From the IMG/VR virus record IMGVR_UViG_2636415418_000003: a DNA stretch of 12,783 bases; one strand, given 5' to 3'. Origin of the DNA: a virus. Lineage: Duplodnaviria > Heunggongvirae > Uroviricota > Caudoviricetes. Below the pieces are notes generated by a model. That model saw nothing but the letters and a program-made list of their open reading frames with translations. It was not told where the DNA came from and made no database searches. Positions within the stretch are counted from its first letter, which is position 1. Each line of letters opens with the position of its first letter. A program made the translations under genes and the position numbers. Shown here one piece after another: positions 4,082 through 6,211 of this stretch.

Positions 4082-4441
4082 AATCAACACTCATTTAGAT
4101 TACATAATGAAGATTATGATTGATCACTTTTAGATCATTTTCAAGTAGTTAGTTTAAAAGTTAGATTGCTTTTACTTTTGTTTCTTCTCCCCCACTTTTA
4201 GCCCTGCCCACCTAGAAACGGGGGATAGATTGCCCTGTACTTGACTAAAAATATCTGAGGTATTTCTGGGCAATTAGGCGCTAATTAACCCCCCATTTAA
4301 TTTGATTAAAGTTGGTCGTTTTTTGCTCGATACACGAAGTGCTTAACACCGTCATATCACATTTAATAATCACGCTAATAATTTCAAAATATCATAATGC
4401 CGTTTGAATGCTAATTGCATAAGCACTGCATACACCATGCA

Positions 4442-4456
4442 TATAACAGGTCAAAC
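4442..4456 (+). repeat. Copy A of a perfect 15-bp direct repeat tataacaggtcaaac (copy B at 5954-5968)
   Basis: Exact 15-mer read at both sites; both copies are followed within ~25 bp by an aactgtta-containing palindrome (gtaactgttac at 4466-4476; acagttaactgt at 5981-5992). Confidence 0.9.
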
Positions 4457-4713
4457 GGGTGTTTGGTAACTGTTACAGTATCTAATCGGTTGATTTTAAA
4501 GTGTTTTATTTATATGAACTTAGATTACTGTTTGCTAAATTGTAATCTAACCACTCTGATCACCACGTAATATTGCTCTCGTTCCACGCAACATCACCGA
4601 CATCGCGTCATGATATTTCCCGCCAAAATCACCATCAAATAATAATCATTATCATCTAAAGTACTGATCATTTATACGGTAAAAAATTTATTCAAAAATT
4701 GAGATTTTTATAA

Positions 4714-4730
4714 TTGTTATATTATAACAA
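4714..4730. promoter_or_regulatory. 17-bp perfect palindrome ttgttata-t-tataacaa; candidate operator upstream of the 4884 gene
   Basis: Read directly; lies ~150 bp upstream of the ATG at 4884 in AT-rich DNA; binding protein unknown. Confidence 0.4.
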
Positions 4731-4883
4731 TGAGAGAAGAGAAAGGTTTTCTTAGCAATTCAGTTGTTAACCAAAACAGGTGTAATTTTGTTTACAACTT
4801 AAAATTAACTTTGATTCTACTTTCATCTACTAATATGCAAGAGGTAAGATTGACAATATAACTCCGAGTGTAAGGATTTCTAA

Positions 4884-5306
4884 ATGGTAGACCCAACCTC
4901 CTTAGCTGCAATCTCTGGTACGCTTGATCTTGTGAACAAATCGGTGGATTTAGTTCGTAACCTCCGCAAAAAAGGTGATGAGGAACTAACAGCCGCTGAA
5001 ATGCGCAGCACGTTGATTGATTTACTAGAAGATCTGGTTGAAGTTAAAAGCGAATTTGTGACTTTAAAGGCAGTTTTACTTAGTAAAGAAGAAGAGATCC
5101 AAGAGCTTAAGGCAAAGCTACAAGGTAAGGAATCACTTAAATTTGATGGGCTTCTTTACTGGAAAGAAAACGACCCTACAGCATTCTGCCCTGTATGTTA
5201 TGAGAAAAATAATTCTTATATTCATATGATTCATAACAAGTCAGGTCCAAAAAGTCGCGAGTACTGGACTTGCCGTGTATGTAGTAATATTTTTTATATT
5301 TATTGA
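4884..5306 (+). CDS. Hypothetical coiled-coil protein with C-terminal Cys4 zinc ribbon (140 aa); possible regulator
   Basis: ATG at 4884 with SD aagga (4872-4876) at 7-nt spacing; heptad-like charged N-terminal half; C-terminal CPVC...CRVC pair. Confidence 0.6.
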   Translation: MVDPTSLAAISGTLDLVNKSVDLVRNLRKKGDEELTAAEMRSTLIDLLEDLVEVKSEFVTLKAVLLSKEEEIQELKAKLQGKESLKFDGLLYWKENDPTAFCPVCYEKNNSYIHMIHNKSGPKSREYWTCRVCSNIFYIY

Positions 5307-5340
5307 AAATTACGTCATTTTTCCGGCTTTAGTTGACTTT

Positions 5341-5362
5341 ATGCTTCTCGTTAGAGAAGCAT
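5341..5362. repeat. 22-bp palindrome atgcttctc-gtta-gagaagcat (9-bp arms)
   Basis: Read directly, 35 bp after the stop at 5306; no T tract follows on either strand, so it is more likely a protein-binding inverted repeat than a terminator. Confidence 0.5.
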
Positions 5363-5430
5363 AATTGACCATGCTATAAAATGTGTAATAGATAGATCAC
5401 CATAGCATAATAGGTAATGCATAGTTTACC

Positions 5431-5646
5431 ATAGTTAATAATCATATAATGCATTAAAGATAATACGCGATGCTGGAGCGATAGCGAACAGGTCAGCGTA
5501 TAGTTATTAATCATAATAGTTAATAAGTTTAATTATATTAACTTTATATTATTTATAAAACTATTAACTATGATCATCATACGCGACTCCACTGTCGCGG
5601 GAACATTCAGGCTATAACAAAGGATTAATAAAACTATTAACATAGC
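5431..5646. repeat. Iteron-like cluster of ATAGTTAATA motifs in AT-rich DNA; candidate replication origin or multi-site operator
   Basis: Forward copies atagttaataatcata (5431-5446), atagttattaatcata (5500-5515, one mismatch) and atagttaataag (5516-5527); reverse copies tattaactat (5562-5571) and ctattaacatag (near 5633-5646); also hairpin cgcgac-tccact-gtcgcg (5582-5599). AT-rich DNA inflates chance matches. Confidence 0.35.
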
Positions 5647-5953
5647 CTGATGATATGCACATAGCGTCATAGCTAACGATTGAACGATACAGACTATTCA
5701 ATCTATTACCTATTCCTGATATAACCACAATAACACTATTATTGTGATAACTGATTCTATGTTGCTAACTCATTTCATTCGTGATCAACCAACAATCAGT
5801 CACGTTCTCTATCCTCTCCTAAATTAAAAAGGGGTAATTTTAATTCTTAAGTATCTTTAGATTTATTTTTACCCTTTTTAGTGATGCTGTGATCTACCGG
5901 AGAGGAGAACGTAAACGTCAACTAAAGCCGCCAAGGCTCCCCAACTCCAGATT

Positions 5954-5968
5954 TATAACAGGTCAAAC
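5954..5968 (+). repeat. Copy B of the perfect 15-bp direct repeat tataacaggtcaaac
   Basis: Identical to 4442-4456; sits immediately upstream of the -35-like tttaca at 5972-5977. Confidence 0.9.
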
Positions 5969-5971
5969 CCC

Positions 5972-5998
5972 TTTACAAACACAGTTAACTGTTATAAT
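5972..5998 (+). promoter_or_regulatory. Promoter-like element with consensus -10 TATAAT and an embedded 12-bp perfect palindrome acagttaactgt (candidate operator)
   Basis: -35-like tttaca (5972-5977), spacer 15 nt (short), -10 tataat (5993-5998); palindrome 5981-5992 occupies the spacer. Confidence 0.35.
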
Positions 5999-6027
5999 AT
6001 TAAATTGGGTTATTTTAAATATAAGTA

Positions 6028-6057
6028 TTGACATATGTATCTATATTCGTGTAAGAT
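6028..6057 (+). promoter_or_regulatory. Candidate sigma-70 promoter for the 6212-9052 operon
   Basis: -35 ttgaca (6028-6033), 18-nt spacer, -10 taagat (6052-6057); about 155 nt upstream of the first ATG. Confidence 0.35.
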
Positions 6058-6211
6058 AATCTCAGATAAACACATTTCTTGTTTGCGGAGCAAATGACAT
6101 TCAGTCACCCGCAGGCGGGCATTTCTTGCTTTATCCTCTAGCCACGAAGTATCCCCGGCTGAACAAACCAACTAAACAAAAATTTAATAACCTCACTTAG
6201 GAGGAACCCCT

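What the first reader, a model, noticed from the sequence alone, without database searches (positions are those of the whole stretch)
4134..6211. A 2.1-kb AT-rich region with a single gene and dense repeat architecture
Bacterial genomes rarely leave 2 kb nearly non-coding. This region lies between the divergent recombinase gene and the plus-strand operon and carries a 17-bp palindrome, a 22-bp palindrome, a 9-bp-stem inverted repeat (4520-4550), iteron-like ATAGTTAATA copies in both orientations, and two promoter-like elements with embedded palindromes. It looks like a replication origin and/or a regulatory switch region of the element.
Basis: seen in the sequence. Interest (0 to 1): 0.65.

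Follow-up and report, generated by a model that had tools for sequence, protein, structure and literature searches.

The report
Replication origin, recombinase site and promoters
The 2-kb gene-poor stretch is the control hub of a roughly 14-kb phage-satellite-like island: it most likely holds a target site for the neighbouring small recombinase, one swappable cargo gene, a repeat-rich replication origin matched to the island's own helicase, and the promoters of its main operon.

Summary
An invertible switch is not supported.

The window carries an integrated island that occurs as near-identical copies (99.5-100% over the shared part) in at least 10 E. coli assemblies. Comparison with about 20 diverged relatives splits the region into modules.

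1. 4520-4550 is a 12-7-12 inverted repeat about 430 bp upstream of the 185-aa tyrosine recombinase.
   - Its arms co-vary with the recombinase.
   - It is replaced by a different repeat exactly where a different recombinase replaces the small one.
   - I read it as a lox-like target site.
2. 4884-5306 is one of at least three alternative cargo genes. No other ORF is conserved.
3. 5320-5932 is an origin cassette.
   - It holds ATAG-N-TAAT repeats on both sides of the least stable DNA in the window (8% GC).
   - It is bounded by a perfect 14-bp inverted repeat.
   - It travels with the helicase gene (6533-8002), not with the cargo, capsid or other operon genes.
   - Relatives with lambda-O-like initiators carry different iteron arrays at the same place.
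4. 5972-6057 holds tandem promoters, one with a palindromic operator.

All functions are inferred from sequence; none was tested biochemically. This is a new member of known kinds. Interest is moderate.

The parts
3524..4081 (-). Small tyrosine recombinase, 185 aa, catalytic domain only
   Evidence: Pfam Phage_integrase 6.5e-21 covering residues 10-178. The catalytic residues R39, H134-x-x-R137, H160 and Y169 are invariant in 24 homologues. The nearest solved structures are XerC-like/XerA catalytic domains. No equivalog model is reached.
4091..4150 (-). Recombinase leader and promoter block. It holds a TTAGATTAC half-site (4095-4103), the conserved ATGATTGATCA..GATCATT.TCAAG block with two GATC sites, and promoter-like TTGAAA-17-AATCAT (4144 to 4116).
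   Evidence: Near-invariant in 7 diverged relatives. Promoter scan. The promoter assignment is inferred.
4442..4456 (+). Conserved box TATAACAGGTCAAAC, copy 1 (copy 2 is at 5954-5968). Function unknown.
   Evidence: Exact 15-mer direct repeat. It lies in the most conserved 20-nt block of region 1, with mean identity to the window of 0.91 across 11 sequences. Copy 2 sits at the same place, just right of the origin cassette. In L113-L116 this is inferred from homology running to window 5967; in L117 it was read directly.
4483..4495 (-). IHF-consensus-like site (TAATCGGTTGATT) about 25 bp left of the recombinase site
   Evidence: Pattern match. The consensus positions are kept while the four N positions vary in L001, L002 and L028. 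Binding is inferred.
4520..4550 (.). Lox-like core site TTAGATTACTGT | TTGCTAA | ATTGTAATCTAA (12-7-12)
   Evidence: Present in all 9 distinct elements that carry the small recombinase. Relatives with 56%-identical recombinases have TTAGGTCACAGT-N7-AGTGTGACCTAA at 413-522 bp upstream. It is replaced by another inverted repeat in L113/L115, which carry a 559-aa integrase instead, while both flanks stay homologous. There is one copy per genome and no copy outside the element.
4699..4731 (+). Promoter-like TTGAGA-18-TATAAC overlapping the 19-bp palindrome ATTGTTATATTATAACAAT, upstream of the cargo slot
   Evidence: The palindrome is confirmed. It is conserved in 9 of 11 relatives whatever cargo gene follows. 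The promoter reading is my own reading of the sequence.
4884..5306 (+). Cargo gene: 140-aa protein with a helical hairpin and a C-terminal 4-Cys zinc ribbon
   Evidence: Conserved in L001, L023 and L117. Replaced by unrelated genes of 144/147 aa or of 199-222 aa in other relatives. The N-terminus is near-invariant and the zinc ribbon hypervariable. Model pLDDT is 79. There is a weak Foldseek hit to Rip1.
5324..5337 (+). Left arm of the 14-bp perfect inverted repeat CGGCTTTAGTTGAC that bounds the origin cassette
   Evidence: Homology with L028 and with L113-L116 starts here, after three different cargo genes.
5339..5364 (.). Hairpin with an 11-bp stem
   Evidence: It carries two non-compensated mismatches in L028, so it is weakly conserved.
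5399..5446 (+). Left iteron array: ATAG motifs at 5402, 5412, 5422 and 5432, spaced 10 bp apart
   Evidence: Read from the sequence. Exact ATAGTTAATA at 5431.
5499..5577 (.). AT-rich candidate unwinding element flanked by converging ATAGTTAATA-type repeats (plus strand at 5500 and 5516; minus strand at 5536 and 5562)
   Evidence: Lowest GC (8.3% over 60 nt) and lowest duplex stability of the whole window: -76.9 kcal/mol per 80 bp against a mean of -104.4, sd 7.9. Repeats.
5582..5606 (.). GC-rich dyad CGCGAC-N6-GTCGCG followed by GGAACAT
   Evidence: TCGCGGGAACAT is also present just right of the AT-rich stretch in L002, and related GC dyads occur in L001 and L112.
5624..5713 (.). Right repeat set: an inverted TAAAACTATTAAC copy, CATAGC repeats at 5641, 5660 and 5669, and ATTACCTATT
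5724..5790 (+). Hairpin CACAATAA/TTATTGTG followed by the CATTCGTGATCA box. Function unexplained.
   Evidence: The same kind of unit (a hairpin whose stem varies but stays complementary, then GATTCGTG) occurs 1-2 times in each close relative.
5917..5930 (-). Right arm of the 14-bp inverted repeat; end of the origin cassette
   Evidence: Homology with L028 ends at 5932. The repeat is kept at 13 of 14 positions in L113-L117, where overall identity falls to 66% in L117.
5972..6000 (+). Promoter P1, TTTACA-17-TAATAT, with the 12-bp palindrome ACAGTTAACTGT in its spacer (candidate operator)
   Evidence: L108, whose second-gene product is 57% identical, has TAACAGATATCTGTTA in a promoter spacer.
6028..6057 (+). 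Promoter P2, TTGACA-18-TAAGAT
   Evidence: Best promoter match near the operon. Tandem TTGACA promoters about 60 bp apart are present in all 7 close relatives.
6062..6211 (+). About 150-nt leader with a hairpin plus a U-rich tract, and the ribosome-binding site GGAGG at 6200-6204
   Evidence: The fold is not significant in the window (z = -1.5). Relatives carry a hairpin plus U-run with one compensatory pair, read.
6212..6573 (+). First two operon genes: a conserved 57-aa protein, and a 63-aa protein I read as ribbon-helix-helix-like (candidate operator binder)
   Evidence: Homologues in all relatives. No Pfam hit, so the fold assignment is inferred from the sequence pattern only.
6533..8002 (+). 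Helicase-type protein in the initiator slot (489 aa; DEAD/ResIII-like N-terminus; a C-terminal helix-turn-helix in relatives)
   Evidence: Pfam DEAD 3e-7 and ResIII. phrog_2467. GerE, HTH_23 and Sigma70_r4_2 hits in homologues. It is the only gene that co-occurs with the origin cassette. The same slot holds O-like replication initiators in L112, L017, L108 and L001.

Best explanation
The stretch is a string of cis-acting modules of an integrated, capsid-encoding, satellite-like island. The island starts at about window 870-1175 and runs past the right end of the window, to a 420-aa integrase.

From left to right:
(a) The promoter and leader of the small tyrosine recombinase.
(b) A single 12-7-12 inverted repeat (4520-4550), with an IHF-like site beside it. 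I take this to be the recombinase's lox-like target. Its most likely job is to resolve multimers or to circularise copies of the element once it replicates outside the chromosome. There is only one site per genome, so it has no partner for inversion or integration.
(c) A promoter-like site with a palindromic operator, driving an interchangeable cargo gene. Here the cargo is a helical-hairpin plus zinc-ribbon protein.
(d) An iteron-type replication origin (5320-5932). ATAG-N-TAAT repeats on both sides of an 8%-GC unwinding element would be bound by the element's own helicase-type initiator (6533-8002). That protein would melt the AT-rich core and start replication.
(e) Tandem sigma-70 promoters. 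One carries a palindrome that I propose is bound by the small protein encoded by the second operon gene. They drive the operon that encodes that regulator, the initiator and the capsid genes.

Shown here: the anatomy, the statistics, and the conservation, co-variation and co-loss patterns.
Inferred: every binding event, replication itself, recombination itself, and the multimer-resolution role.
For: Context.
- The same element, 99.5-100% identical over the part shared with the window (window ~870/1130 onward), sits in 10 different flanks.
- Its layout runs from an integrase through capsid, helicase, the gene-poor gap and the small recombinase to defence-like cargo.

Origin.
- The repeats exceed chance.
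- The AT-rich core is the least stable DNA in 12.8 kb.
- Each of L001, L002, L017, L031, L032, L038, L108 and L112 has its own array of 3-5 repeats, at the same relative position. Spacing is 21-24 bp where measured. An AT-rich stretch follows in the six I read (L001, L002, L017, L038, L108, L112).
- Cassette 5320-5932 is shared at 87% identity (core 5399-5700 at about 97%) with L028 and L113-L116, and at 66% with L117. All of these encode the helicase at 71-89% identity, and together they follow three different cargo genes.
- L001 and L002 share the downstream genes at 8067-9619 with the window but have other iterons and other initiators.
- L028 has a different capsid (23% identity) but the same origin.
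- L002 and L108 both carry DUF6945 initiators (69% identical) and related iterons, CCATAGGGAATCATTCCC and CCATAGGTAATGGTTACC.
- The slot occupied by the helicase holds 'replication initiation / O-like' proteins in L112, L017, L108 and L001.
- PICI origins are likewise two iteron sets flanking an AT-rich stretch (PMC6092414).

Recombinase site.
- Position, arm co-variation and co-loss.
- An intact catalytic set in the recombinase.
- A single copy per genome.

Promoters.
- Tandem TTGACA promoters about 60 bp apart in all close relatives. All but L028 carry a 10-16-bp perfect palindrome there.
- The palindrome is the same where the second-gene products are close: L113/L117 at 87% identity with CTAACGTTAG, L001/L002 at 65% with ACAAACGTTTGT, and window/L108 at 57% with ACAG-N4-CTGT.

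Non-coding status.
Against: - Nothing was tested biochemically.
- Six of about nine substitutions between the window and L028 in the 97%-identical origin core fall inside ATAGTTAATA-type copies. The exact recognition unit is therefore uncertain.
- The helicase's C-terminal helix-turn-helix is its most divergent part (27-53% identity) although the origin core is conserved. That domain is probably not the iteron reader.
- The helicase has no hit to a characterised initiator family. The only one is a 15-bit CyRepA1 match against a cut-off of 200. There is no solved homologue.
- No DnaA boxes were found.
- The origin lies upstream of the operon, not 3' of rep as in PICIs.
- The 14-bp inverted repeat around the origin has no assigned role.
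- In the window the operator-like palindrome sits in P1, whereas relatives have it in P2.
- L112 shares CTAACGTTAG with L113/L117 although their second-gene proteins are only 26-30% identical.
- No recombination product of the 4520-4550 site was observed.
Confidence: 0.7

Rival explanations
1. Fim-like invertible switch. The small recombinase flips the 579-bp segment between the 14-bp inverted repeats (5324-5337 and 5917-5930), turning expression or replication on and off.
For: A recombinase of Fim-like size lies next door. A perfect 14-bp inverted repeat is unlikely by chance in 2 kb (my estimate is about 0.01 expected). It is conserved in relatives down to 66% identity.
Against: The orientation relative to the flanks is the same in 10 near-identical copies and in L028 and L113-L117. 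The repeat is unrelated to the TTAGATTAC arms that co-vary with the recombinase. It is kept in L113, L115 and L116, which lack the small recombinase. P1 and P2 lie outside the segment. No FimB/FimE model appeared among the NCBIfam hits.
Confidence: 0.05
2. The repeat-rich AT-rich cassette is a packaging (pac or cos) site recognised by a helper phage's terminase, not an origin.
For: Satellites need a packaging signal, and none has been located in this element. Repeats, AT-rich DNA and IHF-like sites also occur in cos and pac regions.
Against: The cassette follows the initiator-slot gene and not the capsid or other morphogenesis genes. No lambda or P2 cohesive-end sequence is present. Relatives with O-like initiators have classic arrays of 3-5 repeats spaced 21-24 bp.
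Confidence: 0.07
3. The 4520-4550 inverted repeat is an ordinary operator for a transcription factor, or a recombinase autoregulation site only, and is not a site of strand exchange.
For: Palindromes are typical operators. A TTAGATTAC half-site also overlaps the recombinase leader at 4095-4103. That fits a regulatory binding role.
Against: The 12-7-12 geometry with an asymmetric AT-rich spacer that varies freely is the geometry of tyrosine-recombinase core sites. The arms co-vary with the recombinase. Only this roughly 80-bp island is swapped when the recombinase is swapped.
Confidence: 0.15
4. The non-coding DNA mainly encodes regulatory RNAs or unannotated micro-proteins that control the element, as the CI RNA does in P4.
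For: Blocks of 4370-4470 and 4630-4730 are strongly conserved even in relatives without the small recombinase. Hairpins with compensatory stem changes exist between the origin and the promoters.
Against: No Rfam match at E of 1 or less. No ORF is conserved. The middle of region 1 exists in two mosaic allelic forms rather than showing covariation. The leader fold is not significant. RNA products are not excluded.
Confidence: 0.1

Closest known systems
Phage lambda ori with the O initiator (lambdoid iteron origins)
   Same: Several dyad-symmetric repeats of about 20 bp next to an AT-rich stretch and a GC-rich dyad. Repeat sequence co-varies with the initiator. Relatives of this element encode O-like initiators.
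   Different: Lambda ori lies inside the O gene (my own knowledge). Here the origin is intergenic, 0.3-0.9 kb upstream of the operon. In the window the initiator slot holds a DEAD-like helicase with a helix-turn-helix rather than an O-like protein, and the repeats are short 10-bp-phased ATAG-N-TAAT units in both orientations.
PICI / SaPI replication origins (Fillol-Salom et al. 2018, PMC6092414)
   Same: Two sets of iterons flank an AT-rich melting region. The origin is specific to a satellite-encoded initiator-helicase. The host element is a chromosomal island.
   Different: PICI origins lie immediately 3' of pri-rep; this one lies 5' of the operon. The helicase is not a Pri-Rep homologue by any search run here. 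The cassette is bounded by a 14-bp inverted repeat.
P1 Cre/loxP and plasmid multimer-resolution sites (Xer/cer, ResD/rfsF); my own knowledge
   Same: A tyrosine recombinase is encoded a few hundred bp from a single inverted-repeat core site with an asymmetric spacer, close to a replication origin.
   Different: The recombinase is only 185 aa and lacks the N-terminal core-binding domain of Cre and XerCD. The site is 12-7-12 rather than 13-8-13 or 11-6-11. No activity has been shown.
fimS switch with FimB/FimE; my own knowledge
   Same: A very small tyrosine recombinase lies next to AT-rich regulatory DNA with an IHF-like site.
   Different: The recombinase-linked repeat has only one full site. 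No inversion was seen.
Arc/Mnt/CopG-type ribbon-helix-helix autoregulation; my own knowledge
   Same: A small N-terminal beta-strand plus helix protein is encoded just downstream of a promoter whose spacer holds a perfect palindrome.
   Different: No Pfam match supports the fold. Palindrome-protein co-variation is only partly consistent.

Membership tests
Iteron-type replication origin | Cluster of repeated initiator-binding sites above chance | tested here: met
   8 matches against 1.8 expected, 0 of 200 shuffles; six lie in 5431-5713. ATAG motifs phased at 10 bp.
Iteron-type replication origin | Adjacent AT-rich DNA-unwinding element | tested here: met
   5499-5577 is the least stable and most AT-rich DNA of the window.
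Iteron-type replication origin | Cognate initiator encoded in cis and co-varying with the repeats | tested here: met
   The helicase travels with cassette A in the window, L028 and L113-L117. Other initiators pair with other iterons.
Iteron-type replication origin | Supports initiator-dependent autonomous replication | not testable with these tools
   Needs a cloning and replication assay.
PICI-type origin | Origin immediately 3' of the pri-rep gene | tested here: not met
   The origin lies at 5320-5932, upstream of the operon. The helicase starts at 6533.
Fim-type invertible switch | Two inverted recombinase sites flanking a segment that is found in both orientations | tested here: not met
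   One full TTAGATTAC site. The 5350-5904 segment has one orientation in 17 loci.
Tyrosine recombinase with a lox/dif-like core site | Catalytic R-H-x-x-R-H-Y residues intact | tested here: met
   R39, H134, R137, H160 and Y169 are invariant.
Tyrosine recombinase with a lox/dif-like core site | Inverted arms of 11-13 bp around a 6-8-bp spacer, linked to and co-varying with the recombinase | tested here: met
   12-7-12 geometry. Arms are TTAGATTAC or TTAGGTCAC according to recombinase clade. The site is lost together with the recombinase.
Tyrosine recombinase with a lox/dif-like core site | N-terminal core-binding domain, as in Cre and XerCD | tested here: not met
   The protein is 185 aa, and Pfam's catalytic domain spans residues 10-178.
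Tyrosine recombinase with a lox/dif-like core site | Catalyses recombination between two sites | not testable with these tools
   Needs an in vivo excision or inversion assay.
Ribbon-helix-helix autoregulated promoter | Palindromic operator inside the promoter, and an RHH protein encoded downstream | tested here: inconclusive
   Palindromes are present and partly co-vary with the protein. No Pfam hit supports an RHH fold.
Rip1-like ring-interacting pore (for the 140-aa cargo protein) | Fold similarity to Rip1: N-terminal amphipathic helices plus a C-terminal ring-binding domain | tested here: inconclusive

The most novel reading that the evidence does not exclude
The window samples an undescribed family of capsid-encoding enterobacterial phage satellites built from freely exchanged cassettes. 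In this family, (i) origin-initiator pairs are swapped as units. One pair uses an unusual SF2/DEAD-like helicase with a helix-turn-helix as initiator, and its origin is delimited by a conserved 14-bp inverted repeat. (ii) A minimal tyrosine recombinase, consisting of the catalytic domain only, acts with a 12-7-12 site as a Cre/loxP-like circularisation or multimer-resolution device. (iii) The slot between them carries anti-phage or helper-interference cargo, such as a Rip1-like terminase sensor.
Probability: 0.3. Interest if true: 0.6.

Novelty: new member of a known kind. Interest (0 to 1): 0.4.

Why it matters
The analysis gives a concrete, testable map of the cis-acting DNA of a mobile island that is currently spreading in E. 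coli: near-identical copies sit in many different flanks.

It pairs an origin with an uncharacterised helicase family annotated only as 'DEAD/DEAH box helicase'. It pairs a very small tyrosine recombinase family, widespread in Gammaproteobacteria, with a candidate target site.

If confirmed, the recombinase-site pair would be a compact new site-specific recombination tool. The origin-initiator pairs would be new compatible replicons. The cargo slot would be a place to look for defence or helper-interference genes.

As biology, iteron origins, operator-bearing promoters and resolution sites are all familiar kinds of element.

Tried and rejected
- Rfam (E of 1 or less) and tRNA scans of the whole window found nothing.
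- DNA search of 5300-6215 against 5,426 complete E. coli genomes found no match, so the cassette is not a multi-copy MITE there.
- Inversion of 5350-5904 was rejected: one orientation in all loci.
- An IMG/VR scan for TTAGATTAC-N13-GTAATCTAA gave only 4 unrelated chance hits.
- I considered that the zinc-ribbon protein binds the iterons, because the window/L001 mosaic break falls at its C-terminal domain. This was rejected. The same cargo occurs with origin types A and D, and origin A occurs with three different cargo genes.
- I considered that the helicase's C-terminal helix-turn-helix reads the iterons. This is weakened, because that tail is the most divergent part of the protein while the origin core is 97% identical.
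- Lambda and P2 cohesive ends and DnaA boxes are absent. GATC is only mildly enriched, 11 against 6.7 expected.
- No small ORF is conserved.
- The window's leader fold is not significant.
- PADLOC found nothing for the three cargo types.
- Literature searches for a described satellite family with this layout, and for DUF6945, found nothing relevant.
- A chromosomal attB-like copy of the recombinase site was not found.

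
Full report
**What the window is**

The ORF map, family searches and neighbourhood look-ups show an integrated island. Its parts, in window order, are:
- defence-like cargo at the left: a DUF2971 protein matching PADLOC candidate PDC-S31 (1979-2680);
- a 185-aa tyrosine recombinase on the minus strand (3524-4081);
- the gene-poor stretch in question;
- a plus-strand operon: 57-aa and 63-aa proteins, a 489-aa DEAD-like helicase, several small proteins, a lambda-gpE-like major capsid protein and a 603-aa protein;
- beyond the window, a 420-aa integrase.

The exact recombinase sequence occurs on contigs in 98 blocks of the public collection. 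Ten loci with different flanks (L003-L012) are 99.5-100% identical to the window over the part they share, which starts at 863-1130 and ends at 12763 (8869-9620 in the three truncated loci). Several of these copies lie next to lambdoid prophage tail-fibre genes. Complete E. coli genomes hold only three diverged relatives.

- The region is 34.5% GC against 41.7% elsewhere.
- Perfect hairpins and palindromes are about four-fold enriched over dinucleotide shuffles: 10 against 2.3, with 0 of 200 shuffles reaching 10.
- ATAGTTAATA-like copies number 8 against 1.8 expected (0 of 200), and six of them lie in 5431-5713 on both strands.
- Only 4884-5306 is a conserved gene. All other ORFs of 30 aa or more carry stops, lose coverage or vanish in relatives.
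- Rfam and tRNA scans are empty.

**Relatives used**

- The recombinase family search gave 192 proteins across Gammaproteobacteria.
- A scan of species-representative genomes gave 80 loci.
- Exact-protein look-ups gave the elements L017-L027 and L108-L117.
- Together with L001, L002 and L028, these are about 20 non-identical elements with the same gene order.
- All the enterobacterial ones have an ORF-poor gap of 1.5-2.3 kb between the recombinase and the operon. Some have one cargo gene in the middle and some have none.

The gap is therefore a family trait, not a local accident.

**Right half: a replication origin**

Every relative examined has its own array of 3-5 repeats at the same relative position. 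Spacing is 21-24 bp where measured. An AT-rich stretch follows in the six relatives I read directly, and in several it contains AATAAGAAYAA.

| Locus | Repeat unit |
|---|---|
| L001 | GGGGTGTATTAACnnTnATACA |
| L002 | CCATAGGGAATCATTCCC |
| L108 | CCATAGGTAATGGTTACC |
| L112 | GGGTGTAAGGAGAAC |
| L017 | GGGTTCTATATGAAC |
| L031, L032, L038 | three further types |

In the window, ATAG motifs are phased at 10 bp (5402-5432). Further copies converge on 5499-5577. That stretch has the lowest GC (8.3%) and the lowest duplex stability in the whole 12.8 kb, about 3.5 sd below the mean. A GC-rich dyad follows at 5582-5606.

The decisive test is which gene the repeats follow.
- Cassette 5320-5932 is shared at 87% identity (core about 97%) with L028 and L113-L116, and at 66% with L117.
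- All of these encode the helicase at 71-89% identity.
- Between them they follow three different cargo genes. L028 also has a different promoter region and a different capsid (23% identity).
- Conversely, L001 and L002 share the genes at 8067-9619 with the window but have different iterons and different initiators.
- L002 and L108 share a DUF6945 initiator (69% identical) and closely related iterons, with different cargo.
- L108 and L112 share cargo but differ in both initiator and iterons.

PHROGs labels the proteins in the helicase's slot as 'replication initiation protein' or 'O-like' in L112 (4e-11), L017 (6.5e-10), L108 (3.6e-7) and L001 (1.8e-4).

The iteron cassette therefore co-varies with the initiator slot and with nothing else. 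This is the pattern known for lambdoid origins and PICI origins (PMC6092414).

Caveats:
- The helicase has no hit to a characterised initiator family beyond a 15-bit CyRepA1 match. A DEXDc helicase domain does occur in that plasmid Rep protein (PMC10079941).
- Most of the few window/L028 substitutions in the origin core fall inside the ATAGTTAATA copies.
- The helicase's C-terminal helix-turn-helix is its most divergent part.

So which part of the protein reads which unit is open.

**The origin cassette has sharp edges**

- Homology with L028 runs from 5320 to 5932.
- These ends coincide with a perfect 14-bp inverted repeat, CGGCTTTAGTTGAC (5324-5337 and 5917-5930).
- The repeat is kept at 13-14 of 14 positions even in L117.
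- I tested whether it marks an invertible segment. The orientation is identical in all 17 loci. The repeat persists in L113, L115 and L116, which lack the small recombinase. Inversion is therefore rejected.
- Its role is unexplained. It could be a module boundary or a pair of symmetric binding sites.

**Left half: the recombinase's site**

- Region 1 (4091-4883) is non-coding.
- Its conserved islands are the recombinase leader and promoter block, the box TATAACAGGTCAAAC, an IHF-consensus-like site, the 4520-4550 repeat and a 19-bp palindrome.
- The repeat reads TTAGATTACTGT | TTGCTAA | ATTGTAATCTAA. The arms are conserved in the nine distinct elements that carry the small recombinase, while the spacer varies.
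- In the clade whose recombinases are 56% identical, the equivalent site is TTAGGTCACAGT-N7-AGTGTGACCTAA, at 413-522 bp upstream.
- In L113 and L115, a 559-aa integrase replaces the small recombinase. There, only the roughly 80-bp island holding this repeat is replaced, by a different repeat (CTTGGTGTG..CACGCCAAG). The sequence on both sides stays homologous.
- The catalytic residues are intact.
- The site is single-copy in the window and in the three complete genomes that hold a relative. No chromosomal copy exists elsewhere.

I conclude, by inference, that this is the recombinase's core site. Because it has no partner within a genome, I infer that it acts between copies of the element: multimer resolution or circularisation, as Cre/loxP does for P1. 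That role is the least secure step of the model.

**The single gene**

- The 140-aa protein is one of at least three alternative cargo genes at this slot.
- Its family has a near-invariant N-terminal helical hairpin and a hypervariable zinc ribbon.
- An AlphaFold model (pLDDT 79) has as its only significant Foldseek hit phage HK446 Rip1 bound to a small terminase: E 9e-4, TM 0.33-0.37.
- Rip1 is an anti-phage pore protein that senses terminase or portal rings (review PMC13434031).

**Promoters**

- All close relatives have two TTGACA-type promoters about 60 bp apart upstream of the operon.
- All but L028 carry a 10-16-bp perfect palindrome in or next to one promoter spacer.
- Elements with similar second-gene products share the palindrome. 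L113/L117 (87% identical) have CTAACGTTAG. L001/L002 (65%) have ACAAACGTTTGT. The window and L108 (57%) have ACAG-N4-CTGT.
- This fits autoregulation by the small second-gene protein, which I read as ribbon-helix-helix-like from its sequence pattern. There is no Pfam support for that fold, and there is one inconsistency, in L112.

**Verdict**

These are new members of familiar kinds of element, sitting in an apparently undescribed satellite-like island. Interest is moderate.

Noticed in passing
window 1979-2680 (+): The 233-aa DUF2971 protein matches the PADLOC candidate defence family PDC-S31 (E 1e-36). The arm left of the small recombinase carries different cargo in every relative, for example an HTH plus M78 peptidase in L017.
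   Followed up: partly
window 4884-5306; model m6c9863bbb5c6: The best Foldseek hit of the cargo protein is phage HK446 Rip1 bound to the T6 small terminase (E 9e-4, low TM). The family has an invariant N-terminus and a hypervariable zinc ribbon, as expected for a conserved effector joined to a variable sensor.
   Followed up: partly
window 5724-5790; L108, L112, L001 and L002 between origin and promoters: In L001, L002, L108 and L112 there are hairpins with a constant 9-nt loop, GATAAA(A/C)CT, and variable but complementary stems (AACAAT/ATTGTT, AGCAAT/ATTGCT, TTAAAAAT/ATTTTTAA). They are often preceded by TAACACTCAT and followed by GATTCGTG, and several occur per element. The window's unit at 5724-5790 has a different loop (CACTA). 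The core ATAAAACTATT also occurs in the window's inverted iterons. They could be priming or single-strand initiation hairpins, or a protein-binding site.
   Followed up: partly
window 4442-4456 and 5954-5968: The exact 15-mer TATAACAGGTCAAAC occurs twice, 1.5 kb apart. Copy 1 lies in the most conserved block of region 1. Copy 2 sits just right of the origin cassette, upstream of P1; the same arrangement holds in L113-L116 (inferred from homology running to window 5967) and in L117 (read directly). Nothing is known to bind it.
   Followed up: partly
window 5324-5337 and 5917-5930: A perfect 14-bp inverted repeat marks the exact mosaic boundaries of the origin cassette. It is conserved down to 66% overall identity. 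It is not an inversion site, and its function is unknown.
   Followed up: yes
window 7870-8002 (helicase C-terminus): The last 45 or so residues of the helicase, which form a helix-turn-helix in relatives, are only 27-53% identical between elements whose helicase cores are 63-100% identical (by 50-residue bins) and whose origin cores are conserved. This tail may read something other than the iterons.
   Followed up: partly
L001 12660-12700, L002 12490-12535, L028, L108, L112 and L117 leaders; window 6078-6140: A hairpin followed by a U-run lies just upstream of the ribosome-binding site of the first operon gene. It carries one compensatory pair (CACTTTG/CAAGGTG against CACTATG/CATGGTG). It may be a leader terminator or attenuator. 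The window's version is weaker and its fold is not significant.
   Followed up: partly
window 1-1175: This stretch is 100% identical to many E. coli chromosomes, where it is annotated '4-fold beta flower protein'. Positions 869-1066 are 92% identical to a lambda / phage 21 segment. The island's left junction lies at about 870-1175, and other copies abut lambdoid tail-fibre genes or a CP4-like island.
   Followed up: partly
L022-L027 (Klebsiella, next to sodB): A short island of about 5 kb holds only the small recombinase, region 1 with the lox-like site, a zinc-ribbon homologue and other cargo, with no operon or capsid. It may be a deletion remnant, or the recombinase module may be able to persist on its own.
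   Followed up: no
L114 2923-3594: One relative carries a Dam-like methyltransferase with a helix-turn-helix between the recombinase and the cargo slot. The recombinase promoter block in all relatives holds two conserved GATC sites (window 4122 and 4133).
   Followed up: no
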